Shown here: positions 21,419-42,121 of the stretch, piece by piece
Layout of the letters: each line of letters opens with the position of its first letter
Position numbering within the stretch: position 1 is the first letter of the stretch
IMG/VR virus record: IMGVR_UViG_3300031857_000029
Reading direction: 5' to 3' (one strand)
DNA length: 64,000 bases
Origin: a virus
Notes under the pieces: model-generated
Told to the model about the DNA's origin: nothing
Seen by the model: only the letters and a program-made list of their open reading frames with translations
Databases searched by the model: none
Program-made: the position numbers and the translations under genes

Positions 21419-21420
21419 GA

Positions 21421-21705: not shown

Positions 21706-21706
21706 T

Positions 21707-22408: not shown

Positions 22409-23201
22409 CAAACCAAATCTATTAATAGGGGCAATAAGTGCAAACTATTCCCCAGCAGATATTGAAGGGTGGGTCACAACATCCAAGTGGGATAACTGCG
22501 AACAAGTATTACTTGTATACAATGTTACATCAAAAAACAACCCACTGTTGACCTATTTAAAACAGCACAATGTAACGGTATTACAGCCTGATTTTGATTT
22601 CTGGGGAAATCCTGAATCAGAATTTCAGCATCATACTGGACTTTGTAATTTAGAAACTTCTTACAACTTAATTCATAATCTCAGATTTTTTCATATTTGG
22701 AATTATCTGCAAAATCAAAATTATGAAAAGGTTTTGATTACAGATGTACGGGATGTATATTTTAATCATAATCCATTTGAACGCATTCCCGCAGATAAAC
22801 TAATAGCTACGAGTGAAGAAGTTCTCTATAAAAATCATCAATGGAACCAAACACATCTTCATTATAATTTAGGTGTGATTGGTATGTTTGTGTTACTGGA
22901 TGAACCAGTATACAATGTAGGCGTGTTTGGTGGTTCCGCGGAACTGGTCAAGAACATTTCGTCGGACATTTATTTACTGTCTATTGGTAAGCACAAAGTG
23001 GCAGACCAAACTTCGTTTAATTATTTGATTCAAACCAAATACAAACATATGACACGGTTCAGCGGTATCAATGATAAGTTTGCCGTACACTTGCATGTGG
23101 TCAACGAAGGACTAGTGCCGTTTGATTATAAGGTAGCAAATGAGTATGCGATTATTCATCAATACGATAGAATCACTAATTGGAATAGTTTAATTATATG
23201 A
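22401..23201 (+). CDS. putative GT-A glycosyltransferase
   Basis: LITDVRDVYF..NPF, DQTSFNYL, IIHQYDR. Confidence 0.7.
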   Translation: MSNKPNLLIGAISANYSPADIEGWVTTSKWDNCEQVLLVYNVTSKNNPLLTYLKQHNVTVLQPDFDFWGNPESEFQHHTGLCNLETSYNLIHNLRFFHIWNYLQNQNYEKVLITDVRDVYFNHNPFERIPADKLIATSEEVLYKNHQWNQTHLHYNLGVIGMFVLLDEPVYNVGVFGGSAELVKNISSDIYLLSIGKHKVADQTSFNYLIQTKYKHMTRFSGINDKFAVHLHVVNEGLVPFDYKVANEYAIIHQYDRITNWNSLII

Positions 23202-23881
23202 AAATATTATATAGAATTTCTGATGGGTCGTACAAGAAAGAAAGATTTCAACATGCCACCAAACAACATTGTGTTGAAAACTTCTTGACACATTTCCCAA
23301 CAGAAGAAGTGACCATTTATGCAGATAACGTTCGAGATGAAACACTCGAATGGATTACCGCATTAGGGTGCGAAACTATCCGTACAAATGGTGGAAGTAG
23401 CGCTGCAGGATTCCGTATCGTGATGGATGCCGCATTACAACTAGCCGATGATGAATCTGTATACTTTGTGGAAGATGACTACTTTCATTTACCAAACTCC
23501 AGAACAATATTGCTGGAAGGATTAGAGAGGTCACATTATGTTTCCTTATATGACCATAGAGACAAATATATTCCAGCCAGTATGGGTGGTAATCCTTTTA
23601 TTGATGACGATGCAGCAGAACTTACTAAAGTCTTTGTTACTAATTCAGTTCATTGGAAACTTACTAACAGTACAACAATGACCTTTGCAACAAAGGTATC
23701 TACATTGAAGGAAGATGCTGAGATTTGGAAGAAGTATACCTCAGGCACTTATCCACAAGACTTCAAGTGTTTCCTTGAATTACGGGAAAATGGTCGTACG
23801 CTTGCTACCCCACTTCCAGGCTACAGTACCCATTGTGAACCAATGTGGGCATCACCTTTAATTGATTGGGAATCCGTATGA
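23198..23881 (+). CDS. putative GT-A glycosyltransferase
   Basis: VYFVEDDYFH motif. Confidence 0.7.
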   Translation: MKILYRISDGSYKKERFQHATKQHCVENFLTHFPTEEVTIYADNVRDETLEWITALGCETIRTNGGSSAAGFRIVMDAALQLADDESVYFVEDDYFHLPNSRTILLEGLERSHYVSLYDHRDKYIPASMGGNPFIDDDAAELTKVFVTNSVHWKLTNSTTMTFATKVSTLKEDAEIWKKYTSGTYPQDFKCFLELRENGRTLATPLPGYSTHCEPMWASPLIDWESV

Positions 23882-24609
23882 AGTATTCTATTATTATTCC
23901 TTATCGCAACAGAGAAGAGCACTTACAAGTATTATTACCTACCTTACTTGAAAGGTTTTCTAATGAGTCATTTGAAATTATTGTATCAGAGCAAAATGAT
24001 ATCGACAATTTCAGAATTGCGTGTGTTCAGAACATAGCCTATAATTACGCAAAAGGTGACATATTAATATTTCACCAAGTAGACTATATTCCAAGTGACG
24101 ATGTTTCATATGAAGTTACGGATGTGCCGGTTCTTCCAGCTCGTCGTGGAATATTTTTAGGCAAGGACCATCAGTCACTAAGAGAGTTCAATGACATTCC
24201 TGCCGGATATCGTGAATGGTCGCGGGAAATAGACCCACGATTTTATGGTGGAGTTATTTGTATGTCCCGTTCCCACTTTGAAACTATTAATGGATTTAAC
24301 CCACTGTATCGTGGATGGGGCAATGAGGACGAAGATTTGCGTGAACGATTTGTGTGGGCTGGATTACCCGTACACCGCAACGAGGTAGGTACCTTCTACT
24401 GTCTACATCACGAAGATAACGGGGATATGCAAAATAAAGAACAAGAAATACAGAAAGACTTCTTTGAAGGACGTAAATATCTAATAGAGCAGGCGTATGA
24501 ACAACGACACATCGGGTATAAGAACCTTACCGCTGATGTACAGGAATCACAAACTGATATCCCGAATGTTCGTTGGTTGAAAAGTACTACCTATAAGGTG
24601 AGTGTATGA
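23878..24609 (+). CDS. GT7-like galactosyltransferase
   Basis: IIIPYRNREEHL, FHQVD, GGV...INGF...GWGNEDED. Confidence 0.85.
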   Translation: MKYSIIIPYRNREEHLQVLLPTLLERFSNESFEIIVSEQNDIDNFRIACVQNIAYNYAKGDILIFHQVDYIPSDDVSYEVTDVPVLPARRGIFLGKDHQSLREFNDIPAGYREWSREIDPRFYGGVICMSRSHFETINGFNPLYRGWGNEDEDLRERFVWAGLPVHRNEVGTFYCLHHEDNGDMQNKEQEIQKDFFEGRKYLIEQAYEQRHIGYKNLTADVQESQTDIPNVRWLKSTTYKVSV

Positions 24610-25496
24610 AGTCCTGTTTGATAGTATGTCACGGATATTTTGGTGACCACTTATTTGCAAATAGTATCGCTGAACATCTGATTGAAGAAGGTCAATTTGA
24701 TGCGGTCGATTATGTTATAGGGTTTCCACAGGTACTTCCATTCTTTGTACGAAACCCGTATGTACGAAATGTATTTATTGATGGAGTGGGCCCATCACCA
24801 AGAATCCCATCAAATGCGAATACTTATAATAAGGTGTTCCAACTAAGACCTATAACCAGAGTGATACCACCTGCCGTTGAAGTACAAGTCGCTTGCGGAG
24901 TTAACAACCCATCACCGAGATTTCATATAAACACAGATGAAGGAATAGATAAGTTTGTCCGTGATTATTATGGTGAAAAAACTGGATTGGTTGTTGGACT
25001 AATGAATGGGTGGAAAGAACGTTCGTTCCTCTTTACCAAAGAACAATACGACAGAGGAATTGATGTACCAAACCTTGGTTATGGTGGGGCACACAGAAAC
25101 ACTGATTGGATTATAGAGCAACTCGAATTAAAGTTTAATACTATACGAGTGGGAACTGAAAAGAATGTTAATCAGTTTGTGGTGCAGCACGAAGGACCGT
25201 CATTAGACCTCACCGCGTCTATCCTAAAGTATTGTGATGTATTTGTTGGTGCGGAAGGTGGGTTGGCCAATCTGGCGTACGCTGTAGGAACGGATACCAT
25301 CCTTACCTCCGACTTTGTACATCAATTGTATGGACCAAACGGAGTACTACAGAAGTTACCAGAACCAAAGTTGGGTCCAATATATTATGGTGGTAAGAAT
25401 ACGCACATAAACTTAGACCCATATCTTACCGATGAAGATGTGTTTTTACGAATAGTAGAATGTTTAGACAACAAGAGAATGGAGATTGAACAATGA
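24606..25496 (+). CDS. GT9-like glycosyltransferase
   Basis: GDHL, CDVFVGAEGGLANLAYAVG. Confidence 0.7.
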   Translation: MKSCLIVCHGYFGDHLFANSIAEHLIEEGQFDAVDYVIGFPQVLPFFVRNPYVRNVFIDGVGPSPRIPSNANTYNKVFQLRPITRVIPPAVEVQVACGVNNPSPRFHINTDEGIDKFVRDYYGEKTGLVVGLMNGWKERSFLFTKEQYDRGIDVPNLGYGGAHRNTDWIIEQLELKFNTIRVGTEKNVNQFVVQHEGPSLDLTASILKYCDVFVGAEGGLANLAYAVGTDTILTSDFVHQLYGPNGVLQKLPEPKLGPIYYGGKNTHINLDPYLTDEDVFLRIVECLDNKRMEIEQ

Positions 25497-26527
25497 AAGT
25501 GTTAATTACAGGGGTAGCTGGACTATTAGGGTCACGCCTTGCAGATTGGATTATTTACAACAAGCCCGGCACTGAGGTCATCGGGATTGATGATTTTAGT
25601 GGTGGGTACGAAAGTAACATACATCCAAATGTAACATTTTATAAAATGGATTTGGGTAAAGAGTCAGTTGACGCAATTTTTGAACGACACCAACCAGACA
25701 TTGTATATCACTTCGCTGCCTATGCAGCAGAAGCACTGTCTCCGTTCATTCGTCAGTTTAATTATACTAATAATTTAGTTAGCACTGCGGGTATCATTAA
25801 TGCCTGTATCAAATACTCTGTAAAGCGGTTGGTATTTACTTCCTCTATGGCGGTGTATGGAGATAATATCCCACCATTTGATGAAACAATGCCACGCAGT
25901 CCAGTTGACCCGTATGGTGTTGCAAAGATGGGTTGTGAAATTGATATTCAGATTGCAGGCGAACAGCATGGGTTAGATTGGTGTATCATCCGTCCTCACA
26001 ATGTATATGGTGCAAAACAAAACATTTGGGATTCCTATCGTAATGTGCTAGGTATCTGGATGTATAAGCATCTAACTGGACAACCGCTTACTATCTTTGG
26101 TGACGGTACACAAATGCGTGCCTTCAGTGATATGACCGATTGTCTCCAACCGCTTTGGAACGCAGGTACCAGTTTCGTCGCATCAAAAGAAATCATTAAT
26201 CTTGGTGGAATACACGAAACCAGTATCAACGAAGCAGCAGAAACATTAATTAAGGTTATGGGTGGTGGAGAAATTGTATATCTTCCACCCCGCCACGAAG
26301 TCAAATACGCATATCCAACATGGCAAAAGTCGGTAGACCTTCTTGGGTTTGAACACAGAACCAGTCTATTTGATGGGTTGACAAAGATGTGGAATTGGGT
26401 TAAACTACAACCTAGTAGACCACGACAAGTATGGGGAACATACGAATTAGAAAAAGGTATTTATCCATATTGGCAAAAGGAAACATTGATGGCGGAAGCT
26501 CCATCTACTCACCTATTAGAAAAGTAA
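25493..26527 (+). CDS. NAD-dependent epimerase/dehydratase
   Basis: ITGVAGLLGS, TSSMAVYG, YGVAK, RPHNVYG. Confidence 0.92.
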   Translation: MKVLITGVAGLLGSRLADWIIYNKPGTEVIGIDDFSGGYESNIHPNVTFYKMDLGKESVDAIFERHQPDIVYHFAAYAAEALSPFIRQFNYTNNLVSTAGIINACIKYSVKRLVFTSSMAVYGDNIPPFDETMPRSPVDPYGVAKMGCEIDIQIAGEQHGLDWCIIRPHNVYGAKQNIWDSYRNVLGIWMYKHLTGQPLTIFGDGTQMRAFSDMTDCLQPLWNAGTSFVASKEIINLGGIHETSINEAAETLIKVMGGGEIVYLPPRHEVKYAYPTWQKSVDLLGFEHRTSLFDGLTKMWNWVKLQPSRPRQVWGTYELEKGIYPYWQKETLMAEAPSTHLLEK

Positions 26528-26534
26528 TTATAAT

Positions 26535-27341
26535 ATGATAACGGTTATTGTCCCAAGTTATAGGAATCCAAAGTATCTTGACTTGTGTTTAAAATCTATT
26601 ACAGAAAATAAGGTATTAGATTCCACACAAGTTATTGCGGTTATTGATGGGTATGTAGCAGAAAACCAAGAGGTGATGAGTAAGTATCCTACTGTCGGGT
26701 TTCTTCCATTTGAAGATAATATGGGAATGCAATATGCCATCAACGCTGGCGTGATGCAAGCAGAGACAGAATACGTATTTGTAGTAAATGATGATAACGT
26801 ATTCCCTACGAGATGGGACGAGCGGCTGACGGACTCTATCAAAAAAATTAAGGATGAACAGTTTGTTATTACCGTCAACCAAGTAGAACCGACTGGGCCT
26901 GGGATGTTTAATTTTCCGGTAGTGGACCTGGGACAAAGCGTTGATACCTTCTTGTATGACCAGTTTTTGGATAATGAAACAAAATTAGCAAGCCAACAAA
27001 TCACCAGTGATGGTCATATTTTTCCATTCGTAATGAAGAAAAAGCATTTTATGGCTGTGGGTGGTTTCGATACATTCTATAATAGCCCTAACATCTGTGA
27101 TTGGGATTTCTTTTTAAAGTTAGAGCTACTGGACTTTGCGTTTCCACGAATACACTCGTTGCATTTATATCACTTTGGTTCAGTATCTACAAAGAAAAAT
27201 GCAGAGAGTGCAACATTCCGTGAAAAGGAACAAATAGCGATGGAACAATATATGTGGAAGTGGGGTACGCCACCATATAATCAAGCCAACATAAACAGTA
27301 AAGTTCCGCCAACTAAACAATTTCGAGGGTTTCGTGTATGA
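26535..27341 (+). CDS. GT2-family glycosyltransferase
   Basis: VIVPSY, VVNDD, VGGFD...DWDF, YHFGS. Confidence 0.88.
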   Translation: MITVIVPSYRNPKYLDLCLKSITENKVLDSTQVIAVIDGYVAENQEVMSKYPTVGFLPFEDNMGMQYAINAGVMQAETEYVFVVNDDNVFPTRWDERLTDSIKKIKDEQFVITVNQVEPTGPGMFNFPVVDLGQSVDTFLYDQFLDNETKLASQQITSDGHIFPFVMKKKHFMAVGGFDTFYNSPNICDWDFFLKLELLDFAFPRIHSLHLYHFGSVSTKKNAESATFREKEQIAMEQYMWKWGTPPYNQANINSKVPPTKQFRGFRV

Positions 27342-32373: not shown

Positions 32374-32538
32374 ATGGAATTCGTACAAGAGATAGTCGGT
32401 GAACTACCTCTTTCAGAATTCCGGTCTGTGGCTCAGAAGGTCTTTTTAGGAAACTGGAATGTTGAGTTGTACTACGAAGCGATGGGACTTGATTGGGATG
32501 ATGAAGTGGTGGAAAACGAAAACGACAACCTGAATTAA
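32374..32538 (+). CDS. small acidic protein (54 aa, not in ORF track)
   Basis: MEFVQEIVGELP...; GGAG RBS inside the hairpin arm. Confidence 0.5.
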   Translation: MEFVQEIVGELPLSEFRSVAQKVFLGNWNVELYYEAMGLDWDDEVVENENDNLN

Positions 32539-32550
32539 GGTTGTCGTTTT
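32519..32550. terminator. bidirectional terminator between convergent operons
   Basis: AAAACGACAACCT-GAATTA-AGGTTGTCGTTTT. Confidence 0.8.
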
Positions 32551-32553
32551 TCT

Positions 32554-34644
32554 TTATAGTATCTTTTCTAGTTCTTTGATGACCATATCTGCGGTAATCT
32601 CACGGGAACATTCGAATTGTCTCAGAGTTCCTTTATGATCTGGGCACCAGTTCCAATCGCCTGGGTCAAACTTATGTCGGTTCCAACATCCAGAACATTT
32701 TCCTTTTGGTGCAGATATTCTGATACAATCCTGCATCTCATTGAATGGTTCGGTGAACCCACTTATCATCACGGTTGGTGTTCCCACCGCCCAACTTACC
32801 CAGCTCAATCCACTACTGATACCTATGAATGCCTTTGACCTCTTTAATTCTTCTATAACTTTATCAATAGGTGACCTTGGAAATTGTTCTACCCCAGCAG
32901 GATTTCGGTTTCCCATATATCCATCTTCTTCTTGGGACAGTAGTTTTACGGTATAACCTCGTTCTTTCAACCAGTTTACTACTTCTTGCCACCCAAATGG
33001 ATTATTCCAGTATTTAGATTGGGCAGTAGAGTGTGTGGCTATGGTCACTAACTTGGAATCTGTATTATCTATGTCGGGTTGTTTTACTTTTGGTTGTATT
33101 TCTTTGTATTCTAATCCCAATATATCTGATGCTATTTGCTGTAAAGAAACACTTATCGGGTTGGTTGGGTGTTTATCGCTGTCAAAAGTATTACCTGTAT
33201 GAAATAATCCAATTACGTACATAGCCATAAGATTATGAGCTGTCTCACCTGGGGTGACAAATGTAATTTCTGGATATTCTGATATGAACAAGTCATTCCA
33301 GAAGGTAGAGCATATTACTTCGCAATTATGTTTCTTTCTAAATTCATCTACATAAGGAATCCAGGCAAAAGTATCTCCTAAAGATTTAGAATCCAAAGCA
33401 ATATATACCCGATTTCCTTTTAATTCTAAATTATATGCCATTGACTGTCCCGTATTCTTTTCGGTAATTTCTACGCGCCAATCAACATAATATTTTATAT
33501 TTGGTTTTGCCCAAGAATTACGAGTCAACTCGGTGTTATAAACCACAGTATCGGTTTTCTTATCAATAAACTTTACGGAATATTTTATATCTTGTCCGCC
33601 AAGGATTTCAGCAAACATTCCATTTATACAATTGAAATTAAACTTTCTCACCTGTGACTTCTTTAGTATTGGTGTATTCTTATAGTGATTTATTAATTGT
33701 TTTTTCATAGAAGGTAACTCATTTGTTGTATAGATAGATACTAACTCTTTTGTTCTGTTGTACCAATCTAATAGTTCTGCATGTTTTCTGGCAGAAGTCG
33801 TATATGCCGTGTAATTCTCTATAACACGCTGTATCCCCTGCACAACCGCACCTACTTCCGCCTCTACAATTTCCATACCATCTAAACTATTGTTCTGCTC
33901 AAATGTTCCCACCACTGGTAATCCGCAAGACAAAGCTTCTACCAATGTTAAGTTTGGATGTCCTGCTTCCAACTGAGAAGGATGTAGAAATATACTATGG
34001 TTACGATATACTGTCAATAGTTCTTCTTCTGACAAGTCATATAGAATAGTTAGTTTATCGTATGTTGGTGGATTCTTCTCAAAATAATTTTTATTGTTAG
34101 ATGGACCAGCGATTGTGATTGGGAGTCCCAATCTCTGTGCTGCTTCTATAGCAATACCAAATCCTTTACGGTCAATTGATTGGTCATACGCATACCCATT
34201 ATTAGCCACACATAATAATTTATGAATAGGTCTAGTATCTGGTCCAGAGAAATATAAAGTGTCTACTCCGTGAGAGAAATACTCTGGGATTCCCTCAAAA
34301 TAATCTACAAGGTATTTTGCAGGAACAAACGATTTTATAGAACCCCGCATGGCCTGTAAGTTTTCTTTATATACTGGAGAATCTTTTCCATATAGATACG
34401 CATGGTGGTCGTGAAATGTAAAATAGTAGGGTATACCAACCTCTTGTAGTTCTAATGCTAAATTTGCAATGTGAACATGTACAACATCATGCTCCCCGTG
34501 TTTTACTTCACTTCTATATAATATACGAGATTCGTGATTTAGATTTAATAAGTTCTTATGGGTTTCCCAAATAATCTTTTCTACCGCACCCCACCCATTC
34601 GGAGGAATAGGTATAAGTCCAGGCGTTACATTTACTATTCGCAT
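32554..34644 (-). CDS. GT4 domain fused to TibC/Aah-like protein O-heptosyltransferase domain
   Basis: N-terminal IPP.GWGAVE GT4; C-terminal SLGDTFAWIPY, STAQSKYWNNP.GW, FIG.SSGLSW.SWA, ISGFT, CSGCWN...WCP...FECS. Confidence 0.85.
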   Translation of the reverse strand: MRIVNVTPGLIPIPPNGWGAVEKIIWETHKNLLNLNHESRILYRSEVKHGEHDVVHVHIANLALELQEVGIPYYFTFHDHHAYLYGKDSPVYKENLQAMRGSIKSFVPAKYLVDYFEGIPEYFSHGVDTLYFSGPDTRPIHKLLCVANNGYAYDQSIDRKGFGIAIEAAQRLGLPITIAGPSNNKNYFEKNPPTYDKLTILYDLSEEELLTVYRNHSIFLHPSQLEAGHPNLTLVEALSCGLPVVGTFEQNNSLDGMEIVEAEVGAVVQGIQRVIENYTAYTTSARKHAELLDWYNRTKELVSIYTTNELPSMKKQLINHYKNTPILKKSQVRKFNFNCINGMFAEILGGQDIKYSVKFIDKKTDTVVYNTELTRNSWAKPNIKYYVDWRVEITEKNTGQSMAYNLELKGNRVYIALDSKSLGDTFAWIPYVDEFRKKHNCEVICSTFWNDLFISEYPEITFVTPGETAHNLMAMYVIGLFHTGNTFDSDKHPTNPISVSLQQIASDILGLEYKEIQPKVKQPDIDNTDSKLVTIATHSTAQSKYWNNPFGWQEVVNWLKERGYTVKLLSQEEDGYMGNRNPAGVEQFPRSPIDKVIEELKRSKAFIGISSGLSWVSWAVGTPTVMISGFTEPFNEMQDCIRISAPKGKCSGCWNRHKFDPGDWNWCPDHKGTLRQFECSREITADMVIKELEKIL

Positions 34645-35462
34645 AGTAGGTAGTCCAATACTTCGTTTGTGGATTTTTCTTCCTTAAACCCGTGATATAA
34701 TAGAACTTTACTAGAGTCATGTATATACTCCCAATCAGCTCCAGTTTCGTCTAAATTCTTTCCAAGTCGCGTGTCAGCTACAGCAGACTCTTCAGTTAAT
34801 TTAACAGTATTGATGTCGTGAGTGTTTACGAATATAAATCCTAAACTCTCAGTACCTCCGCGTTTCCAAATACAAACATTAAATGAAGTTTCATCGTGAA
34901 ATGGGTAATACCACTTGCGTCTAGAAATTAGATACTCATTCTTACACATAGAAGTGTATTCTTCAAAGAACTCTTGACAGTTTCTATTGAATACATAGAA
35001 GCACGACCACTGGTATCGCACAGACTTATCTTCTACATTAAAATACTTCATTAATAGCTTTTCATTGTACTCTTGGTAGTTACTTCCATCGGCGTCACGT
35101 GACCAAATAAACGGTAATTCGTGTGGTCCGAACACTCCCAACGCATAGTTGTGATTATGTTTTAGTTTATGAAAGTCCATCCGATGAGAGAAGAGTATGT
35201 CTGTATCTGTGAAGATGAAGTCTTGCTCATCTGGAAACATTTTCATTACATCTAACGACAATTCTGCCTTGTAATAATGGAATGTAGGATAGTTTCTTTC
35301 TGGAATCGGTACTTTTATTAAGTTTTTAGTTTCAAAGGAACTAATGAATCCTATCGTAAAATACACTACTTTAATATCATCGGTCAGATGTGGTTTCATT
35401 GACTTGATACAAGTAATTGCCTGATGTTCGCAAACTTTATTTGTATATAAAAATATAACCAT
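34635..35462 (-). CDS. putative GT-A (GT8-like) glycosyltransferase
   Basis: FTDTDIL, HDETSFN, LYHGFK. Confidence 0.6.
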   Translation of the reverse strand: MVIFLYTNKVCEHQAITCIKSMKPHLTDDIKVVYFTIGFISSFETKNLIKVPIPERNYPTFHYYKAELSLDVMKMFPDEQDFIFTDTDILFSHRMDFHKLKHNHNYALGVFGPHELPFIWSRDADGSNYQEYNEKLLMKYFNVEDKSVRYQWSCFYVFNRNCQEFFEEYTSMCKNEYLISRRKWYYPFHDETSFNVCIWKRGGTESLGFIFVNTHDINTVKLTEESAVADTRLGKNLDETGADWEYIHDSSKVLLYHGFKEEKSTNEVLDYLLCE

Positions 35463-35463
35463 T

Positions 35464-37440
35464 TTACTTTACCTTAGTTGCGAATATACATTCACTTGTT
35501 CCTGCTGCTTCAAATTGATTTGGCTTAAACTCTTCTACCGTGTATCCCATTAATTTTATTTTATTTAACATCGTAGTATATTTTTGTTTGTAATCCTTTT
35601 CGAAGAAATGGCATTCTAAGAAAATATTATTTACATTTTTAAAAACCGATGGGTCTGCGTGTAAGATGATATCGTATTCCGCTCCTTCGATATCAATCTT
35701 CAATAAGTCTATTTCACCGTATGTACTGGTCAATTGCTCTAATGTTACAGTAGGAACTATCTCGGTCACATTACCCTTTACTCCAGCCATATGTGATTCC
35801 AGTCTATCAGGAGATAAGGTACTACTGATAACTGGATTATCTGGTGAATGGTAGAATGTGATTGGCTCTGGTGAATGGTGTAGTGCCTTTGCCAAAACAG
35901 TAACCGTAGTATTATGTTTAAAGTTTCTTTGTAAGTCTTTCAATGCTTTCTTGTCACATTCAATCGCAACAATCTTCTTGGCAAAATCATTCATTAACAT
36001 ATATGAACTGAATACGCCTACATTTGCACCAGCGTCAACAACGGTTTTATATGGCTTGTTTAACCACTTACCGTATTTTTGGTGAACAAAGTATTCTAAG
36101 AAATTAAATTGGTATGGGACAGAATTACTGAGGGTCAGTGTAGGCAAGTTAACATATGTGTGTACATATGGATGCTCATACAACTGCTCTCCCGTTTCGT
36201 TGTTATAAATGCAAAGCTTAACCCCCATAAAGTTAGGGTCATGTTCATATGAATGTACATGCTTATCAACCGGACGCATCCAATATTCAATATATGGTGC
36301 TAAGGAATCCATTACCGATGACCAGAGTACCGCATTAGATTTATATTCTTTTAATGAAATTAATATTGGAAAATCTATTGGTTGGTCTACCGAATAATAT
36401 ATTTGTTGTTCTTGTAGACTCCATCGAGATGTAAACTTATGATTTGATTTCATTTTTATAGAGGGTGTGGGTACATAGTCTTTTACTAACTTTTCTGCAA
36501 TACGATATGCATTCTTCTGCAAATCTTCTGTAAGATACTCAATTGTTTCGTATTTGTCAAAGTATCCCATATAAACTGGAAGATTGTAAATCAATGACGG
36601 CACCTTCCACCCTAATGATTCTCGGATGACAAGGGGCATAGTTTCCATATCAGTTGCGTGACCACGGGAGGTAAATAGGAATAAGTCTGCGGCTTCATAA
36701 AAGTTATCCACATCTGTCCGTTCATTCCACCACTTACAGTTTGATGGAAAGTCTTTCATCAGTGGTCCCCAATAGAATTTGAAGTTGTCAGCTTGATTCC
36801 CAATGAAATGGAACTGAATCGGGTAATTTTGTAACACCCGTGCATATTCAATAATCTCCGCTTGGTTCTTACGGGGAGTAAACAATCCTACATTAATTAC
36901 ATGCTTAAGATTGGGGTCCAGTCCAAGGTCACGAAGTGCTTGTTCTCTGGTCTTGGTTCTGACTTTATTCTCAATAGGATATTCGACCACATCGCATGGG
37001 ATGTCAAACTTTTTATATAGGTTTTCTTGATACTTACTCACCATCAAGAACTTATCTGGCAAATACACTTTGTTGTCTGTATTATATCCAGAATCGTGTG
37101 AGGTTTCTATAATAGAATAGTTTCTATCGGATGAATACAGTTTATCTGCCACATCTCCTTGCATGAACAGTTCGGGGATTTCTTGTAGATGAATAATGTC
37201 TGGCTGAATTTTCTTAATTACATCGAAAAGTTCATGCTTATTTTCCCCAAGGGTAATCAATCGGTCACCTAATAGATTGACTACTTTGTTACGCTGGACA
37301 ACAAGAACCCCACCTGTCACATTACCCCATTCAACACAATAGACCTCACAATCATCCTTAATGAGTTCTATTTGTTTGACGAGGTATTGGGGCATTCCGC
37401 CCGTTGACAGATGGGGTGCAATAAAAACCACTTTTTTCAT
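35464..37440 (-). CDS. GT4 glycosyltransferase fused to FkbM methyltransferase
   Basis: HLSTGGMPQY, GLFTPRKNQ, ETMPLVIRE; DAGANVG, LKIDIEGAE. Confidence 0.85.
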   Translation of the reverse strand: MKKVVFIAPHLSTGGMPQYLVKQIELIKDDCEVYCVEWGNVTGGVLVVQRNKVVNLLGDRLITLGENKHELFDVIKKIQPDIIHLQEIPELFMQGDVADKLYSSDRNYSIIETSHDSGYNTDNKVYLPDKFLMVSKYQENLYKKFDIPCDVVEYPIENKVRTKTREQALRDLGLDPNLKHVINVGLFTPRKNQAEIIEYARVLQNYPIQFHFIGNQADNFKFYWGPLMKDFPSNCKWWNERTDVDNFYEAADLFLFTSRGHATDMETMPLVIRESLGWKVPSLIYNLPVYMGYFDKYETIEYLTEDLQKNAYRIAEKLVKDYVPTPSIKMKSNHKFTSRWSLQEQQIYYSVDQPIDFPILISLKEYKSNAVLWSSVMDSLAPYIEYWMRPVDKHVHSYEHDPNFMGVKLCIYNNETGEQLYEHPYVHTYVNLPTLTLSNSVPYQFNFLEYFVHQKYGKWLNKPYKTVVDAGANVGVFSSYMLMNDFAKKIVAIECDKKALKDLQRNFKHNTTVTVLAKALHHSPEPITFYHSPDNPVISSTLSPDRLESHMAGVKGNVTEIVPTVTLEQLTSTYGEIDLLKIDIEGAEYDIILHADPSVFKNVNNIFLECHFFEKDYKQKYTTMLNKIKLMGYTVEEFKPNQFEAAGTSECIFATKVK

Positions 37441-37472
37441 ATGTATAAAACCTTTAATTAAAAGTTAATATG

Positions 37473-38726
37473 TTATGGGCATGTACCAGTTGATACAACA
37501 GCGCCACCGTCCCAACTAATATAACCAACGCCACTTGGACCGCCTGGATCTCTGTAATATCCGGCCGATGCGTAAGTACCAGTTTTGTTACTGAATAATT
37601 GTAGTGTTCCTGCTATGGTACCTGCTCCATCGTTATAGAACACCGTAGTAGTTGTTGCAGCACATACTTCGTTGGTTGTAGCATACGGACCAATACCCGT
37701 AATAGCATATACTCTGATTATTTGTACTGCGTTTTCTAAATTATTAGTAACAACTGTACTAGTGTGCGCAGGTATGGTTGCATCTCTGAACTGTACACTA
37801 CTTTCTATATTGTACTGTGCTCCCGGCCACGACAAACTGTACAAATTTGCAGTAAGACTTGCACTGTAATATGGAAGGTTGTTTGTCGGACTAAGTGGTG
37901 GGTCCGTCACGGTCACATTTATTGTATCAATAGTTACAAGATTATCTGACCGTATTGTTTTGAAATACAGTAATGCGTCTCCTGCTCTATCTGACAAAAA
38001 TTCAGGAGTCCATTGAAGTACTACATACAATGGGTCACCTGCTTCTAAGAAAATTTTGGGAGGATTATCATTATTTGCTACCGGGAACTTATAAGTAAAA
38101 GTTTGTGGTTGACCCGGCGTAAAGTCATCCCACGCAAAATAATTTAAATCCACATCATGCCAAAGACCATGTAGTGTGCGACCCGGATTCGTTCCTAATC
38201 TGGTATACGGACTACCATCTTCAGTAAATGGTGGGGCTATCGGTGTTAGTCCACTTTTAGTTTTTTTAATAGAGGTTAAAACATTGTTAAGTGCATCACC
38301 TGCTTCGGTATACAAAGTATCACTAATGGTGCCGCCGTCGGCGGGTGAAGCTGCGGTTAAGTTACCATCATCAGTAAAGATTGATGAGGTTGGTCTTGTT
38401 CTAAAATCCGCAGGATACGCTACTCCTGGAATTGCCGTAGTTTTGTATACATTCGTCCACGACAAGTTTCCACCACCACGTGTAATGTTGTTTACATTAC
38501 CGGCGGTATTTGATTGTGGAATGATTGGACCTTGTGTCGGGTCTTTATTAACACCGTCGAGTTGTGCTTGCATGGCATTTGACAAAGCTTCTCGCTTTGT
38601 CACCAAAACCGCATTCGATGATGTAGTGGACCCAATAACTCTTCTTTCAAAAAAGTTTGCTGTTGAGGCTGTTCCTCCTAATGTGGCCTCAACTCCGTGG
38701 TCAAATCGTGCATAATATCTAGCCAT
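37473..38726 (-). CDS. probable virion structural/tail-associated protein
   Basis: Thr/Gly-rich, beta-rich; ends GAVVSTGTCP; downstream of the fibre genes. Confidence 0.55.
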   Translation of the reverse strand: MARYYARFDHGVEATLGGTASTANFFERRVIGSTTSSNAVLVTKREALSNAMQAQLDGVNKDPTQGPIIPQSNTAGNVNNITRGGGNLSWTNVYKTTAIPGVAYPADFRTRPTSSIFTDDGNLTAASPADGGTISDTLYTEAGDALNNVLTSIKKTKSGLTPIAPPFTEDGSPYTRLGTNPGRTLHGLWHDVDLNYFAWDDFTPGQPQTFTYKFPVANNDNPPKIFLEAGDPLYVVLQWTPEFLSDRAGDALLYFKTIRSDNLVTIDTINVTVTDPPLSPTNNLPYYSASLTANLYSLSWPGAQYNIESSVQFRDATIPAHTSTVVTNNLENAVQIIRVYAITGIGPYATTNEVCAATTTTVFYNDGAGTIAGTLQLFSNKTGTYASAGYYRDPGGPSGVGYISWDGGAVVSTGTCP

Positions 38727-38753
38727 ATTGAATACTCTCTGTATTAATTATTA

Positions 38754-38782
38754 ATTATAATACTTCTATAAATATCTGTCAA
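38754..38782 (-). promoter_or_regulatory. consensus sigma70 promoter with nested TATTTATA motif
   Basis: Minus strand TTGACA-GATATTTATAGAAGTAT-TATAAT. Confidence 0.7.
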
Positions 38783-38800
38783 GTGTACATTTGTATTTGT

Positions 38801-39334
38801 TTAACATGCTGATGTATCGCAAAAACCATTACAGCATGCACCAGAACAACAGGTTGAACCATCAATACAAGCGTCCCCCAGCGGAGAACACAGCGTACAG
38901 ATTTCAGTCGCAGTTATAGTACCATTAGTAAAGGTATAACAAGTTTGTCCAGAGAATGTACCACCAGAACATGCGGTTGGAGGAATAAACTTAGTGTTTA
39001 TCAAGGTAGTACATACATTATCGCCCGTATAATATAATGAATTAAAACTATATACTGAAACGTTGCAACTTACTGCACCATTACATATATTATAACAAGT
39101 GTCCCCAGTTTTACCATCTGCAAAGAACGAAGCCTTTTTACTGTGGTCGTAACTCCACCATTCACTTATTGCATCTGGATTGGTTGGTGTTGGATATGGA
39201 TTTTCACAGTTTTGAATTGGACTAAAAAACCCATCCGCTGCGCGACCAATATCAAAACCAGGCTGTGAAGGCACACCAAGTTCTATTCTTATTTGATTAA
39301 AACTAATTAAATTCCCAGTACTTGGTAATACCAT
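38801..39334 (-). CDS. fibre-tip adhesin-like protein with Cys-rich knottin C-terminus
   Basis: N-terminal LPSTG.ISF.QIR.ELG...ISEWWSY; 16 Cys; C-x6-C-x5-CC-x3-C-x4-C. Confidence 0.65.
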   Translation of the reverse strand: MVLPSTGNLISFNQIRIELGVPSQPGFDIGRAADGFFSPIQNCENPYPTPTNPDAISEWWSYDHSKKASFFADGKTGDTCYNICNGAVSCNVSVYSFNSLYYTGDNVCTTLINTKFIPPTACSGGTFSGQTCYTFTNGTITATEICTLCSPLGDACIDGSTCCSGACCNGFCDTSAC

Positions 39335-39337
39335 AAC

Positions 39338-42121
39338 CTAGTCCGTCCCTAATTTCTTCTTCAATTCATCAATTTGTTTTTGTTGTTCTTTGATTGCTTC
39401 AATCAGTAATCCAACTATATTGCCATAGGCAACGGAATATTGGTCAATATCTTTTGCATAACTAACCACTTCTGGAATCACTTTCAATGTTTCTTGTGCG
39501 ATTACACCGATACCTCGTTTGTCTTTATCCTTCCAATCAAAGTATACACCACGAAGTTCCATTACTTTCTTTAATGCATCTTGAATAGTTACAATATTTT
39601 TCTTTGCTCGTTCATCAGAATACGCGGTGATATTGTCGGTTCCATAGATTTCGCCGTTCACGTGAAGTGGGTACGATGGAGCACCGCCGATACCCAATCG
39701 ACTATTGGCACTATCCCATCGTAGATTTGCGTAGCTGGTTAACGTAGTTGCTCCAGAGAAAACTGCTACACGGTCTGCCGTACCACCACTAATCGTTCCT
39801 GCGCCGGAAGTACCAGCGGTCCCCGATACTCCCGATGTGCCGGATGACCCGCTGGTTCCGTTGGCACCATTTGCTCCAGAAGTACCAGAACTGCCACTCG
39901 TACCATTTGCTCCAGATGTTCCTGAGCTACCCGATGACCCAGGCGCACCATTGTTACCAGATGTTCCTGATGAGCCACTTGATCCTGGTGCGCCATTGTT
40001 ACCAGAGGTACCAGAGGTACCAGAACTGCCGGATGAACCAGGCGCTCCATTATTTCCTGAGGTACCTGAACTACCTGTTCCTCCACTTGTACCGGATGTT
40101 CCTCCACTACCAGACACACCTGGGAGTCCCATAGCACCATCTCTACCAGATGAACCCGATGAACCCGAGGTGCCTGATGTTCCTGTAGAACCACTACTTC
40201 CAGATGTTCCCGATGTACCAGAACTTCCGCTTGTTCCTGCCGTTCCACTACTTCCTGCGGTTCCCGATGTTCCCGCACTTCCCGATGTGCCTGATGTTCC
40301 TGCCGAACCACTGGTGCCAGTTGTTCCAGAACTTCCGCTTGTTCCCGTTGTTCCAGAACTTCCACTTGTGCCCGTAGTTCCTGAACTACCCGAAGTGCCG
40401 CTAGTACCACTACTTCCGCTTGTTCCATTTTGACCAGATGTGCCTGAGCTTCCATTTTGCCCTGATGTACCGGCACTTCCGCTTGTTCCTGTTGAACCTG
40501 AACTGCCTGAAGTTCCCGTGCTACCGCTTGAGCCAGATGTTCCACTTGTTCCTGAACTACCGTTTATGCCAGATGTTCCAGAACTTCCGCCGCCACCTGT
40601 TGGACCCGGTAATCCCATTGCCCCATCGCGGCCAGAACTGCCAGAAGTACCTGATGTTCCACTTGTGCCCGCGGACCCAGATGTACCAGCAGTGCCACTT
40701 GTTCCAGAACTACCAGAAGTTCCAGTTGAGCCTGAACTACCAGCTGTGCCAGAAGACCCAGATGAACCTGAGGTACCTTGGACTCCAGATGTTCCAGAAC
40801 TACCATCAAAATAGTTAACGTTTTTTATCGGTGTGTATCCAGATGAACCCGCAGTGCCAGAACTACCGGCGGTCCCCGATGTTCCACTGGTTCCTGCTGT
40901 ACCGGATGTACCCACAGGTAGTTGTGCAACAATTAATAAAACATTTTCATCATTTGAGAATGAATATGTTGATTGAACTAATACTATTGGGAATGTCCAG
41001 TACGCATTGGGTCCAGTTTCTACACCAGTCCCCACCGTCCATTTTTGAAAATTACTTGAATTGTCCGCATCTTGTATTACTATCAACGACCCTGATGGGA
41101 TGATAGCTAAGAAAATATCTATATCTTCATTATTTTGGTCTAAATGGCTTACGACAAGTTCCGTAGCTGATGCTTGTGTAGCGTTGTTCCAGAGGATATG
41201 ACCACTACCAGGATTACCTGATGTTGCATTTGTGTTTGCTTGATATGGGAACAAGTCATTGGACTGTCCGTCTTTACCACTAGTTCCAGCTGTACCAGAT
41301 GTGCCCCCACTACCCGACACGCCGGGTAACCCCATAGCACCATCACGACCTGAGCTGCCTGATGACCCCGATGTTCCTGCGCTACCAGAAGTACCCGAGC
41401 TACCAGAGGTACCTGAAGTTCCTGAACTACCTCCAGTACCAGATGACCCCGAAGTACCAGAACTTCCAGTAGTTCCAGAAGTACCAGAAGTACCATTTAT
41501 GCCAGAGGAGCCTGACGAGCCAGCGGTACCAGCGGTTCCACCACCGCCGACTGGGCCTGGAAGCCCCATTGCGCCGTCACGGCCGGAACTACCCGATGTT
41601 CCTGTACTTCCAGAAGTACCAGATGTACCATCTCGTCCAGAAGAACCCGATGTACCCGGATTACCTTGATTACCTTGTATACCAGGAAGACCCATTGCTC
41701 CATCTCTTCCACTTGAGCCTGAGGTTCCTGCCGTTCCTGCCGTTCCAGATGTACCATCTGCTCCAGATGTACCAGAACTACCACCGCCACCTACTGGACC
41801 TGGAAGCCCCATAGCTCCATCTCTACCAGAACTACCTGATGAACCTGATGAACCTGGTGCTCCGTTTGCGCCACTAGTACCGCTGGTACCAAATGTTTCT
41901 CCACTAGTTCCACTACTACCCGCAGAAGAACCGCCGCCTACACCAGCGATTAGATATCCACCGGGTTTATTGTCGCCGGCGTGTAATCGAATAACTCCAA
42001 ATCCACTTGCTGTTGTGGATTCTATATCCGCAGTAAGAACGCCAGGCAATCCAACATACGCAGCGTTAGACCCTGACGTTCCTCGTAATATCTGAAATTC
42101 TGTGATATTATTATTTGGCAT
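39338..42121 (-). CDS. collagen-like (Gly-Ser/Thr) tail fibre with C-terminal peptidase S74 chaperone
   Basis: Long G-X-Y tracts (GTS, GSS, GTA), internal globular domain, YSDERAKKNI...GVIAQE...YGNIVGLLIEAIKE. Confidence 0.9.
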   Translation of the reverse strand: MPNNNITEFQILRGTSGSNAAYVGLPGVLTADIESTTASGFGVIRLHAGDNKPGGYLIAGVGGGSSAGSSGTSGETFGTSGTSGANGAPGSSGSSGSSGRDGAMGLPGPVGGGGSSGTSGADGTSGTAGTAGTSGSSGRDGAMGLPGIQGNQGNPGTSGSSGRDGTSGTSGSTGTSGSSGRDGAMGLPGPVGGGGTAGTAGSSGSSGINGTSGTSGTTGSSGTSGSSGTGGSSGTSGTSGSSGTSGSAGTSGSSGSSGRDGAMGLPGVSGSGGTSGTAGTSGKDGQSNDLFPYQANTNATSGNPGSGHILWNNATQASATELVVSHLDQNNEDIDIFLAIIPSGSLIVIQDADNSSNFQKWTVGTGVETGPNAYWTFPIVLVQSTYSFSNDENVLLIVAQLPVGTSGTAGTSGTSGTAGSSGTAGSSGYTPIKNVNYFDGSSGTSGVQGTSGSSGSSGTAGSSGSTGTSGSSGTSGTAGTSGSAGTSGTSGTSGSSGRDGAMGLPGPTGGGGSSGTSGINGSSGTSGTSGSSGSTGTSGSSGSTGTSGSAGTSGQNGSSGTSGQNGTSGSSGTSGTSGSSGTTGTSGSSGTTGTSGSSGTTGTSGSAGTSGTSGSAGTSGTAGSSGTAGTSGSSGTSGTSGSSGSTGTSGTSGSSGSSGRDGAMGLPGVSGSGGTSGTSGGTGSSGTSGNNGAPGSSGSSGTSGTSGNNGAPGSSGSSGTSGNNGAPGSSGSSGTSGANGTSGSSGTSGANGANGTSGSSGTSGVSGTAGTSGAGTISGGTADRVAVFSGATTLTSYANLRWDSANSRLGIGGAPSYPLHVNGEIYGTDNITAYSDERAKKNIVTIQDALKKVMELRGVYFDWKDKDKRGIGVIAQETLKVIPEVVSYAKDIDQYSVAYGNIVGLLIEAIKEQQKQIDELKKKLGTD
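39810..41930 (-). repeat. coding G-X-Y repeat region with six GRDGAMGLPG units
   Basis: 9-nt periodicity; synonymous divergence between units. Confidence 0.9.

What the first reader, a model, noticed from the sequence alone, without database searches (positions are those of the whole stretch)
32554..42121. Self-glycosylated collagen-like fibre system: Gly-Ser/Thr fibre co-oriented with a TibC/Aah-like protein O-glycosyltransferase
Seen: one minus-strand block of fibre (about 500 aa of G-X-Y triplets, mostly Ser/Thr and Pro-poor, with S74 chaperone), adhesin, virion protein, GT4-FkbM fusion, GT-A, and GT4 fused to a heptosyltransferase domain that keeps the Cys cluster. Established: TibC/Aah are iron-containing enzymes that O-heptosylate Ser in repetitive autotransporter passengers; glycosylated Thr can stabilise Hyp-poor collagen triple helices; S74 marks trimeric fibres. 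Inference: the phage hyper-glycosylates (and O-methylates) its own fibre, giving a mucin-like triple helix for stability, protease shielding or host-surface mimicry. This is the strongest candidate for a new system in the window.
Basis: partly seen in the sequence, partly recalled or inferred. Interest (0 to 1): 0.82.

Follow-up and report, generated by a model that had tools for sequence, protein, structure and literature searches.

The report
Phage fibre-glycosylating TibC-like enzyme module
An uncultured aquatic phage encodes a proline-poor Gly-Thr/Ser-Ser collagen-like fibre followed by soluble sugar-transferring enzymes, one a true relative of the E. coli adhesin-glycosylating enzyme TibC; this enzyme clade travels with such repeats in many phages and some bacteria, so the phage probably sugar-coats its own fibre, though no experiment has shown it.

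Summary
Window 32554-42121 (minus strand) encodes six genes:
- a 927-aa fibre with 191 Gly-X-Y triplets (mostly GTS/GSS, 14 Pro) and an S74 chaperone domain
- a 177-aa Cys-rich protein
- a 417-aa beta-sandwich protein
- a GT4-FkbM fusion
- a 275-aa GT-A-like protein
- a GT4 fused to a TibC/Aah-type domain (TIGR04414, 294 bits against a cut-off of 200)

The TibC-type domain keeps the catalytic Asp, Thr/Lys/Trp and all four iron-finger Cys. It lacks the adenine-contact Arg.

- Of viral contigs chosen only for six G-[S/T]-[S/T] triplets, 15 of 26 carry a TIGR04414 hit. Of Gly-Pro-X collagen contigs, 0 of 23 do.
- In 10 of the 15, the fibre lies within 10 kb of the enzyme gene.
- Among 50,697 phage records, the fibre-like DNA hits only the records that also carry the closest enzyme relatives.
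- Bacterial chromosomes hold minimal pairs of a small GTS/GTA-repeat secreted protein and the enzyme.
- All repeat-linked enzymes fall in one clade, separate from the autotransporter-linked ones.

Sugar identity, actual modification and benefit are untested. Earlier AI notes of this scan report the same pairing on other DNA (at least 66 genomes); I found no paper describing it. Verdict: a new variant of a known kind of enzyme-substrate system.

The parts
39338..42121 (-). Fibre gene, 927 aa. It has an N-terminal head, two long Gly-X-Y regions separated by a globular insert (aa 288-403), then the S74 chaperone domain and a coiled-coil tail. It is the proposed glycan acceptor.
   Evidence: Collagen E=7e-70. 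PHROG tail-fibre families. 191 triplets with GTS x62 and GSS x46. Six GRDGAMGLPG blocks.
41261..41890 (-). Collagen-like segment 1 (aa 78-287, 70 triplets)
39797..40912 (-). Collagen-like segments 2 and 3 (aa 404-430 and 440-775, 121 triplets)
39464..39619 (-). Peptidase_S74 intramolecular chaperone domain of the fibre (aa 835-886)
   Evidence: PF13884, 54.5 bits (cut-off 22)
38801..39334 (-). 177-aa Cys-rich protein (16 Cys, 21% Ser+Thr), starting 3 nt after the fibre gene. Role unknown; possibly a fibre-associated protein.
   Evidence: no family; homologues follow the fibre gene in L009 and L349
38754..38782 (-). Perfect sigma-70-type consensus (TTGACA-17-TATAAT) in the 74-nt gap before the 417-aa gene. 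It may be a separate promoter for the enzyme genes.
   Evidence: This is a consensus match only; the total count of promoter-like sites equals that in shuffles.
37473..38726 (-). 417-aa Thr/Ala/Gly-rich protein with Ig-like beta-sandwich modules. It is always found just upstream of the GT4-FkbM gene in relatives. Probably a virion or fibre accessory protein.
35464..37440 (-). GT4 glycosyltransferase (aa 166-299) fused to an FkbM-family methyltransferase (aa 466-633). It is the constant partner of the TibC-like gene in other phages.
   Evidence: (homologue in 78 of 81 loci)
34635..35462 (-). 275-aa probable GT-A-fold glycosyltransferase (GT6-like fold, invariant DTD motif)
33655..34644 (-). GT4 domain of the 696-aa fusion protein
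   Evidence: It is not a close paralogue of the other GT4 domain.
32560..33597 (-). TibC/Aah-type (BAHT) domain, aa 350-695. Catalytic Asp424, Thr540, Lys544 and Trp615; iron-finger Cys650/653/667/679. Val596 stands in place of TibC Arg-286.
32518..32551 (.). 14-bp-stem hairpin flanked by an A-run and a T-run, directly after the last gene. Likely a two-way terminator closing the block.
17242..27341 (+). Second sugar island, probably supplying and extending the glycan. It encodes two GT4s, GDP-mannose 4,6-dehydratase, an FkbM methyltransferase, a GT7-like protein, a weak GT9-like protein, an SDR epimerase/reductase and a GT2. All are predicted soluble.

Best explanation
The block is a fibre gene plus a dedicated, cytoplasmic protein O-glycosylation module.

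Proposed mechanism:
1. The TibC/Aah-type domain attaches the first sugar to Ser (and perhaps Thr) in the G-T/S-S triplets of the newly made fibre chains. Like TibC on TibA, it would act before they fold.
2. The fused GT4, the GT4-FkbM protein, the GT-A-like protein and the soluble transferases of the upstream island extend the glycan.
3. The upstream island also supplies a GDP-6-deoxyhexose.
4. The FkbM domains O-methylate sugars.
5. The S74 domain then helps the chains to trimerise and is cut off.

Shown here: the domains, the conserved catalytic residues, and the cross-genome linkage between this enzyme clade and G-[ST]-[ST] repeats.

Inferred: that the fibre is the acceptor, the order of steps, and a dense glycan coat on a proline-poor triple helix.

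Open: which sugar is transferred. Heptose is only one candidate.
For: (1) Family and active site.
- TIGR04414 294 bits; 196 bits to TibC 4RAP.
- Asp110, Lys230 and Trp305 equivalents are invariant in the 48-row clade that holds the window's enzyme. Thr226 is kept in 42 of 48 and the four Cys in 44-45 of 48. All are invariant in the first 58 phage homologues.
- The roles of these residues are taken from PMC4358343.

(2) Reverse co-occurrence.
- 15 of 26 G-[ST]-[ST] contigs have the enzyme, against 0 of 23 Gly-Pro-X contigs.
- Among records at least 80% complete: 6 of 9 against 0 of 13.

(3) Proximity with variable order and strand.
- 10 of 15 within 10 kb, where 2.9 were expected.
- These 15 enzymes are less than 70% identical to one another.

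(4) Cultured and complete genomes.
- Mel-JY01 has an unannotated ORF of more than 1016 aa of GTS/GSS repeats just upstream of its GT4-MT-TibC fusion.
- Megaphage LR756501 has a GTS protein beside a GT4 gene and a GT4-TibC gene.
- blastn with the window's repeat DNA hits only these records among 50,697. They are also the best TibC-domain hits.

(5) Non-phage minimal pairs.
- Methylobacter luteus: a 287-aa signal-peptide protein with GT[AS] runs directly upstream of the enzyme gene, between mfd and glcE.
- A betaproteobacterial MAG: a 99-aa lipoprotein made of GTS/GTA repeats, convergent with the enzyme gene.

(6) Tree. All 27 repeat-linked enzymes lie in one 48-row clade (SH-aLRT 99) apart from E. 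coli Aah (next to AIDA-I) and a Negativicutes clade; 0 of 36 outside are repeat-linked.

(7) No enzyme in either island has a membrane-spanning segment, and no flippase, polymerase or lipid-carrier transferase was found.

(8) Genes are tightly packed on one strand, with a terminator only at the end.
Against: - No biochemical or proteomic data exist.
- In the largest phage group (76 of the first 80 loci) no long Gly-X-Y run lies within 10 kb. There the neighbour is a giant Ser/Thr-rich protein with only short GTS stretches, and the big GSS/GTS proteins lie about 50 kb away.
- Megaphage LR756504 has a divergent enzyme and no collagen at all.
- Three near-complete GTS contigs lack the enzyme. A close relative of the window's module (L349) shows no TibC-like gene within 10 kb.
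- Contigs are related to unknown degrees. The Gly-Pro-X control probably samples other phage lineages. So the p-values overstate independence.
- TibC's known acceptor is a beta-helix repeat, not a collagen repeat.
- Arg-286, needed for TibC activity and ADP recognition, is Val here.
Confidence: 0.66

Rival explanations
1. The enzymes glycosylate a different phage protein and the collagen repeats are a bystander. Candidates are the 417-aa or 177-aa proteins here, or the giant Ser/Thr-rich fibre or poly-Thr mucin-like proteins in other phages.
For: - In the main Mel-JY01-like group the immediate upstream gene is a Ser/Thr/Gly-rich protein of more than 2270 aa with only short GTS stretches.
- Some loci carry 31-33% Thr proteins beside the GT pair.
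- The 417-aa gene is the constant neighbour of GT4-FkbM and may share its promoter.
Against: - Homologues of the 417-aa and 177-aa proteins are absent from the other lineages that carry the enzyme.
- G-[ST]-[ST] repeats are the one feature shared across phage lineages and the bacterial minimal pairs.
Confidence: 0.15
2. The transferases remodel the host cell surface (LPS O-chain or another envelope glycan) to block superinfection. This is how glycosyltransferases and rfaE in tail-fibre regions of pelagimyophages have been read.
For: - PMC7029224 gives this reading for similar gene sets.
- GT9 is the LPS heptosyltransferase family.
- GDP-mannose dehydratase and GT2/GT4 enzymes are typical of O-antigen clusters.
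Against: - No membrane protein, flippase, polymerase, ligase or polyprenyl-phosphate transferase is present.
- The domain scores as the protein-modifying BAHT equivalog, not as LPS heptosyltransferase: 294 bits against 35 bits for TIGR02193. It also keeps the BAHT-specific iron finger.
- This reading cannot explain the specific link to G-[ST]-[ST] repeats or the bacterial pairs.
Confidence: 0.1
3. The TibC-like ring acts mainly as an assembly or chaperone platform for the repetitive fibre, without transferring sugar. Alternatively the genes are linked only by shared descent in one broad aquatic phage lineage.
For: - TibC forms a dodecameric ring that threads its substrate (PMC4358343).
- Arg-286, required for TibC activity, is lost.
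- Much of the linkage comes from related uncultured aquatic phages.
Against: - The catalytic Asp, the beta-phosphate-binding Thr/Lys and the sugar-binding Trp are kept across the clade, which argues for catalysis.
- Gene order and strand vary.
- Pairs occur in bacterial chromosomes outside any phage context.
Confidence: 0.06

Closest known systems
TibC-TibA and Aah-AIDA-I of E. coli (bacterial autotransporter heptosyltransferases, BAHT; TIGR04414; PDB 4RAP/4RB4; PMC4358343)
   Same: - Homologous catalytic domain, about 35-40% identical.
- Same catalytic Asp, Thr/Lys/Trp and four-Cys iron finger.
- A soluble cytoplasmic enzyme encoded beside a highly repetitive Ser-rich surface protein that it would modify many times over.
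   Different: - The neighbour is a collagen-like Gly-X-Y fibre of a phage, not a beta-helical autotransporter passenger.
- The enzyme is fused to a GT4 domain and accompanied by further transferases and methyltransferases, which implies an oligosaccharide rather than single heptoses.
- The adenine-contact Arg-286 is replaced.
- The enzyme belongs to a separate clade.
SgtA-BclA3 of Clostridioides difficile, and BclA of Bacillus anthracis: glycosylated collagen-like exosporium filaments (PMC7157674)
   Same: A glycosyltransferase gene lies next to a collagen-like repeat protein and starts O-glycosylation on the Thr/Ser of the triplets. The product is a glycosylated surface filament.
   Different: - SgtA is a GT-A/TPR O-GlcNAc transferase unrelated to TibC.
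- Its repeats are Gly-Pro-Thr, not proline-free GTS/GSS.
- The setting is a bacterial spore, not a virion.
Virus-encoded virion glycosylation: chlorovirus PBCV-1 A064R (GT-GT-methyltransferase fusion), Mimivirus glycosylated fibrils (PMC9614988), and glycosylated mycobacteriophage virions (Freeman et al. 2023, cited in PMC10877033; I could not read it here)
   Same: The virus carries its own soluble transferases, including transferase-methyltransferase fusions and nucleotide-sugar enzymes, to decorate its own structural proteins.
   Different: Different enzyme families, acceptors (capsid N-glycans, fibril proteins, capsid and tail-tube tails) and hosts. None uses a BAHT-type enzyme or a Ser/Thr collagen acceptor.

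Membership tests
BAHT (TibC/Aah; TIGR04414) | Whole-domain score above the curated equivalog cut-off | tested here: met
   294.3 bits against a cut-off of 200, aa 350-695. 196 bits to 4RAP.
BAHT (TibC/Aah; TIGR04414) | Catalytic base Asp-110 and donor-binding Thr-226, Lys-230 and Trp-305 | tested here: met
   Asp424, Thr540, Lys544 and Trp615. Their roles are taken from PMC4358343.
BAHT (TibC/Aah; TIGR04414) | Four-Cys iron finger (Cys-339/342/358/370) | tested here: met
   Cys650/653/667/679 are aligned. They are invariant in 58 phage homologues. Iron binding itself was not tested.
BAHT (TibC/Aah; TIGR04414) | Arg-286 contact to adenine N1 (ADP-sugar specificity; R286A is inactive) | tested here: not met
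   Val596 here. Arg is present in 35 of 35 classical and Negativicutes members but in only 11 of 48 of the repeat-linked clade.
BAHT (TibC/Aah; TIGR04414) | N-terminal beta-barrel domain (TibC_1st) | tested here: inconclusive
   PF21129 scores 17 bits, below the cut-off of 27. The alignment to 4RAP starts at TibC residue 39.
BAHT (TibC/Aah; TIGR04414) | Acceptor is an autotransporter passenger encoded next door | tested here: not met
   There is no autotransporter in the window. The neighbour is a collagen-like fibre. E. coli Aah sits beside AIDA-I.
BAHT (TibC/Aah; TIGR04414) | Transfers heptose from ADP-heptose; forms a dodecameric ring | not testable with these tools
   - An HldE-kinase-like gene lies next to the enzyme gene in one phage group (109 bits, below cut-off).
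- None was found in the window or in G001.
Collagen triple-helix repeat proteins (PF01391) | Long uninterrupted Gly-X-Y runs | tested here: met
   E=7e-70. 191 triplets. Triple-helix formation was not tested.
Fibres with an S74 intramolecular chaperone (PF13884) | C-terminal Peptidase_S74 domain | tested here: met
   54.5 bits against a cut-off of 22, aa 835-886. Self-cleavage was not tested.
FkbM-family methyltransferases (TIGR01444 / PF05050) | Domain score above the cut-off | tested here: met
   90.7 bits (cut-off 37.7) and 63.1 bits (cut-off 22.7), aa 466-633. The methyl acceptor is unknown.
GT-A-fold glycosyltransferases (for the 275-aa protein) | GT-A fold with a DxD motif | tested here: inconclusive
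   - No Pfam, NCBIfam or PHROG hit.
- Foldseek hits are only GT6 enzymes, E about 1e-4 but TM 0.33-0.38.
- D86-T87-D88 is invariant in 24 homologues.

The most novel reading that the evidence does not exclude
A distinct clade of iron-finger BAHT-like transferases has proline-free G-[Ser/Thr]-[Ser/Thr/Ala] collagen-like repeats as its natural acceptor. It occurs in hundreds of aquatic phages, including megaphages and a cultured Microcystis phage, and in some bacterial and archaeal assemblies. The result would be a new class of densely O-glycosylated collagen-like filaments, in which sugars rather than hydroxyproline stabilise or shield the helix.
Probability: 0.5. Interest if true: 0.85.

Novelty: new variant of a known kind. 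Interest (0 to 1): 0.75.

Why it matters
- BAHT enzymes are known only as modifiers of autotransporter adhesins in proteobacterial pathogens. A sister clade aimed at collagen-like repeats would widen the family's substrate range. It would also explain how proline-poor Ser/Thr 'collagens', common in aquatic phage fibres, might be stabilised or protected.
- It offers another reading of the glycosyltransferases found in tail-fibre regions of marine and freshwater myophages. These have been taken as host-LPS modifiers (PMC7029224).
- It points to testable cultured systems: Microcystis phage Mel-JY01, and the two-gene pair in Methylobacter luteus.
- Glycan-coated fibres would bear on phage adsorption, on resistance to proteases and grazers, and on antigenicity.

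Tried and rejected
- Megablast of the block against 50,697 phage records found no match.
- tblastn with a collagen stretch found nothing, because of the low-complexity filter. blastn 'distant' worked instead.
- The first co-occurrence test looked like a refutation: only 1 of 80 TibC-like loci had a long Gly-X-Y run within 10 kb. These 80 proved to be mostly one phage group, whose giant GSS/GTS genes lie about 50 kb away. The reverse, pattern-first test then settled it.
- I read an S74-like tail by eye in the giant protein of L069. Neither Pfam nor BLASTP supports it, so I dropped it.
- I looked for ADP-heptose pathway genes. There are none in the window or G001, and no GmhA in five records. 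The phage-group kinase scores below cut-off and is interrupted by a stop codon.
- The nucleotidyltransferase domain next to it looks more like NMN adenylyltransferase than HldE domain II.
- A 19-sequence alignment was too diverse for the genome scan, so I used seven sequences.
- The 417-aa protein gave nothing in the Atlas and only generic Ig-like folds.
- The records behind L349 and L350 are not held, so absence of a TibC-like gene from the whole L349 contig could not be checked.
- Neighbours of the Anaerovibrio enzyme gave no clue to its substrate.
- Freeman et al. 2023 could not be read.
- DNA glycosylation was considered and rejected. The enzyme is a protein-modifying equivalog, and the linkage is to a protein repeat.
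Full report
**What is there.**
Window 32554-42121 holds six closely spaced or overlapping minus-strand ORFs (gaps of 74 nt or less), closed by a strong hairpin at 32518-32551.

- The first gene (39338-42121, 927 aa) is a fibre. Pfam Collagen scores E=7e-70, Peptidase_S74 scores 54.5 bits at aa 835-886, and many PHROG tail-fibre families match.
- Its Gly-X-Y regions (aa 78-287, 404-430, 440-775) total 191 triplets, or 573 aa. GTS (62) and GSS (46) dominate. They hold 170 Ser, 92 Thr and only 14 Pro, with six GRDGAMGLPG blocks.
- No run of eight triplets appears in 20 shuffles of the window.
- Next come a 177-aa protein with 16 Cys and a 417-aa Thr/Ala/Gly-rich protein. Neither has a family hit.
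- Then a GT4 + FkbM-methyltransferase fusion (658 aa), a 275-aa protein with no family hit, and a 696-aa GT4 + TibC/Aah-type fusion.
- A perfect TTGACA-17-TATAAT lies in the 74-nt gap before the 417-aa gene. This is a consensus match only.

**The enzyme.**
The C-terminal half of the 696-aa protein scores 294.3 bits on TIGR04414 (cut-off 200). It scores only 35 bits on LPS heptosyltransferase I. It aligns over TibC residues 39-380 of structure 4RAP (196 bits).

I mapped the residues that Yao et al. defined (PMC4358343):

| TibC residue | Role | Window residue | Across relatives (unless noted) |
|---|---|---|---|
| Asp-110 | catalytic base | Asp424 | invariant in the 48-row clade |
| Thr-226 | beta-phosphate contact | Thr540 | 42 of 48 |
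| Lys-230 | beta-phosphate contact | Lys544 | invariant in the 48-row clade |
| Trp-305 | heptose O4 contact | Trp615 | invariant in the 48-row clade |
| Cys-339/342/358/370 | iron finger | Cys650/653/667/679 | 44-45 of 48 |
| Arg-286 | adenine N1 contact; R286A inactive | Val596 | Arg in 35 of 35 classical and Negativicutes members, 11 of 48 in this clade |
| Pro-300 (Ser-294 in Aah) | heptose stereoselectivity | Ser610 | Ser in 16 of 48, Gly in 27 of 48; Gly in 56 of the first 58 phage homologues |

All the kept residues are invariant in the first 58 phage homologues. So this is a true BAHT relative with an intact catalytic core, but its nucleotide-sugar donor is open.

**The other proteins.**
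- The 275-aa protein has about 190 environmental homologues, all unnamed. Its AlphaFold model (pLDDT 78) matches only GT6-family GT-A enzymes, with low TM scores (0.33-0.38). D86-T87-D88 is invariant. GT-A is likely, not proven.
- The 417-aa protein gives a good model (pLDDT 87), but it matches only generic Ig-like beta-sandwiches.
- Relatives on environmental contigs keep the order fibre, small protein, 417-aa protein, GT4-FkbM, 275-aa protein. A variable set of tailoring enzymes follows: acetyltransferase, aminotransferase, GT8, GT17-FkbM, or a GT4-TibC fusion.
- An upstream plus-strand island (17242-27341) adds two GT4s, GDP-mannose 4,6-dehydratase (421 bits), an FkbM methyltransferase, a GT7-like protein, an SDR epimerase/reductase and a GT2.
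- No protein in either island has a membrane-spanning segment. No flippase, polymerase or lipid-carrier transferase was found. This fits glycosylation of a protein in the cytoplasm better than envelope polysaccharide synthesis.

**Co-occurrence, forward direction.**
- The TibC-like domain has relatives on at least 283 IMG/VR contigs. It has 752 representatives of 50%-identity clusters at E<=1e-30, most of them multi-domain fusions.
- The best 80 loci are mostly one T4-like group (T4-type portal and terminase). Its gene order is a giant Ser/Thr/Gly-rich protein of more than 2270 aa, a GT4-methyltransferase (homologue of 35464-37440), then the TibC-like gene.
- Only 1 of these 80 has a long Gly-X-Y run within 10 kb, which at first looked like a refutation. 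But three long contigs of this group carry open frames of 3900-4700 aa made of GSS/GTS triplets about 50 kb away.
- Some loci have 31-33% Thr mucin-like proteins next to the GT pair.
- In about 50 loci an HldE-domain-I-like kinase follows the TibC-like gene (TIGR02198, 109 bits, below cut-off). It is far above the next family, and it is interrupted by a stop codon.

**Co-occurrence, reverse direction (the decisive test).**
- I scanned IMG/VR for six consecutive G-[WSN]-[WSN] codon triplets, blind to any enzyme. Translation confirmed these are G-[ST]-[ST] runs.
- Of 26 such contigs of at least 52 kb that could be searched, 15 have a TIGR04414 match, 14 of them above cut-off. Among records at least 80% complete it is 6 of 9.
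- A control set chosen in the same way for six Gly-Pro-X triplets gave 0 of 23, and 0 of 13 at 80% or more complete. Fisher p=5e-6.
- In 10 of the 15 positives, Ser/Thr-rich Gly-X-Y runs lie within 10 kb of the enzyme gene. Only 2.9 were expected from contig lengths (p=5e-5). They lie upstream, downstream, on the same or the opposite strand.
- The 15 enzymes are less than 70% identical to each other. One neighbour has 861 uninterrupted triplets.

**Named genomes.**
- In Microcystis phage Mel-JY01 the plus strand at 2..3052 is an open frame of more than 1016 aa of GTS/GSS triplets. GenBank annotates opposite-strand ORFs there. It is followed by a 'structural protein' and a 1227-aa GT4-methyltransferase-TibC fusion.
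- In the 735-kb megaphage LR756501 a 695-aa GTS protein lies beside a GT4 protein and a GT4-TibC fusion that is 43% identical over the window enzyme's full length.
- blastn of the window's repeat-coding DNA against all 50,697 phage records hits only LR756501, its duplicate LR756503, and Mel-JY01. These are also the top TibC-domain hits.
- The fourth TibC-positive record, LR756504, has the most divergent enzyme, in a nucleic-acid-metabolism context, and no collagen anywhere.

**Outside phages.**
- A scan of 185,579 species genomes gave 58 loci. The closest (41-53% identity) nearly all have G-[ST]-[ST/A] runs nearby.
- In the Methylobacter luteus chromosome, between mfd and glycolate oxidase genes, a 287-aa signal-peptide protein with GT[AS] stretches (Pfam Collagen 33 bits) sits directly upstream of a 432-aa TibC-like gene.
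- In a betaproteobacterial MAG, a 99-aa lipoprotein made almost wholly of GTS/GTA triplets is convergent with the enzyme gene, among housekeeping genes.
- A 33-member Negativicutes clade (36-38% identity) has no such repeats.
- In a tree rooted on E. coli Aah (encoded beside AIDA-I), all 27 repeat-linked enzymes lie in one 48-member clade. It has SH-aLRT 99 and a long stem. None of the 36 outside are repeat-linked.
- Several 'negative' members of that clade sit on very short contigs.

**Reading.**
The enzyme clade is specifically tied to G-[Ser/Thr]-[Ser/Thr/Ala] repeats in different phage lineages, gene orders and even non-phage loci. The most economical explanation is that the repeats are its acceptor, in parallel with TibC-TibA. 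I put this at about two in three.

- The accompanying GT4s, the GT-A-like protein, the nucleotide-sugar enzymes and the FkbM domains suggest an extended, methylated glycan. This would resemble PBCV-1 A064R and Mimivirus fibril glycans (PMC9614988).
- The closest functional precedent for a glycosylated collagen-like filament is SgtA-BclA3 (PMC7157674).
- The published reading of such genes in aquatic myophages is host O-chain modification (PMC7029224). That does not explain the repeat-specific linkage.
- My literature searches found no paper that links BAHT enzymes with collagen-like proteins or phage fibres.

**Caveats.**
- Everything is comparative.
- The Gly-Pro-X control probably samples other lineages and habitats.
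- Adjacency fails in the largest phage group.
- Some GTS phages lack the enzyme.
- The sugar is unknown.

The scan's own earlier AI notes report the same pairing in at least 66 other genomes, with similar conclusions. I saw these only after my tests, and they are not independent evidence.

Noticed in passing
L003 (Microcystis phage Mel-JY01, PP395634.1) 2-3052 +: GenBank annotates minus-strand 'hypothetical proteins' (1..651, 739..2298) across what is clearly a plus-strand collagen-like fibre ORF of more than 1016 aa of GTS/GSS repeats. The ORF runs off the start of the record, so it probably continues at the record's end.
   Followed up: partly
L353 8914-11116 (Methylobacter luteus NZ_KE386569.1); L355 9977-11411: Two-gene pairs in ordinary bacterial chromosome context: a small secreted protein or lipoprotein made of GTS/GTA triplets next to a stand-alone TibC-like gene. 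These are tractable model systems.
   Followed up: partly
G003:C1:88904-89653 and about 50 loci of L010-L088, just downstream of the TibC-like gene: An HldE-domain-I-like PfkB kinase is split by an in-frame TAA into ORFs of about 129 and 250 aa. It is followed by a 1048-1490-aa protein with an N-terminal nucleotidyltransferase domain. No GmhA was found.
   Followed up: partly
L029 3775-5361; L087 3815-5929; L058 939-2933: Mucin-like proteins with long poly-Thr or Pro/Thr/Ala linkers and Cys-rich modules, plus a radical-SAM/SPASM enzyme, lie upstream of the GT pair in some phages.
   Followed up: no
L340 11688-19436 (-); L164: Single open frames with 785-861 uninterrupted Gly-X-Y triplets (about 2,500 aa of continuous collagen-like repeat), next to a TibC-like gene.
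   Followed up: no
window 39766-40545 (-), 39837-40433 (+), 40420-40818 (+) and others: Long ORFs in other frames and on the opposite strand across the collagen repeats (Pro/Val/Glu-rich translations). They are by-products of the repeat, not genes. The same effect misled the Mel-JY01 annotation.
   Followed up: partly
window 9994-10839 +; 27338-27688 +: A Mom-like DNA-modification protein (phrog_1384, E=3e-52) lies among replication genes. A weak DUF1599 'nucleotide modification associated' hit lies at the end of the sugar island.
   Followed up: no
window 62381-63768 +: Cluster of eight tRNA genes (Ser, Leu, Thr, Lys, Gly, Phe, Asn, Trp). It includes Ser, Thr and Gly, the three residues that make up 60% of the fibre.
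   Followed up: no
window 24606-25496 +: A 296-aa protein with a short, weak match (21 bits) to the C-lobe of TibC/GT9. It has a counterpart in G001. Possibly a second, degenerate GT9-like enzyme.
   Followed up: no
L371 9893-12363 (Anaerovibrio sp. RM50): Two tandem TibC-like paralogues in Negativicutes, with no obvious repetitive substrate gene nearby.
   Followed up: partly
window 44513-45907 +: A virion structural protein (phrog_1645) whose nearest cultured relatives are T4-like Synechococcus cyanophages (S-RIM32, 43% identity). None of these carries a TibC-like gene or GTS-type repeat DNA.
   Followed up: partly
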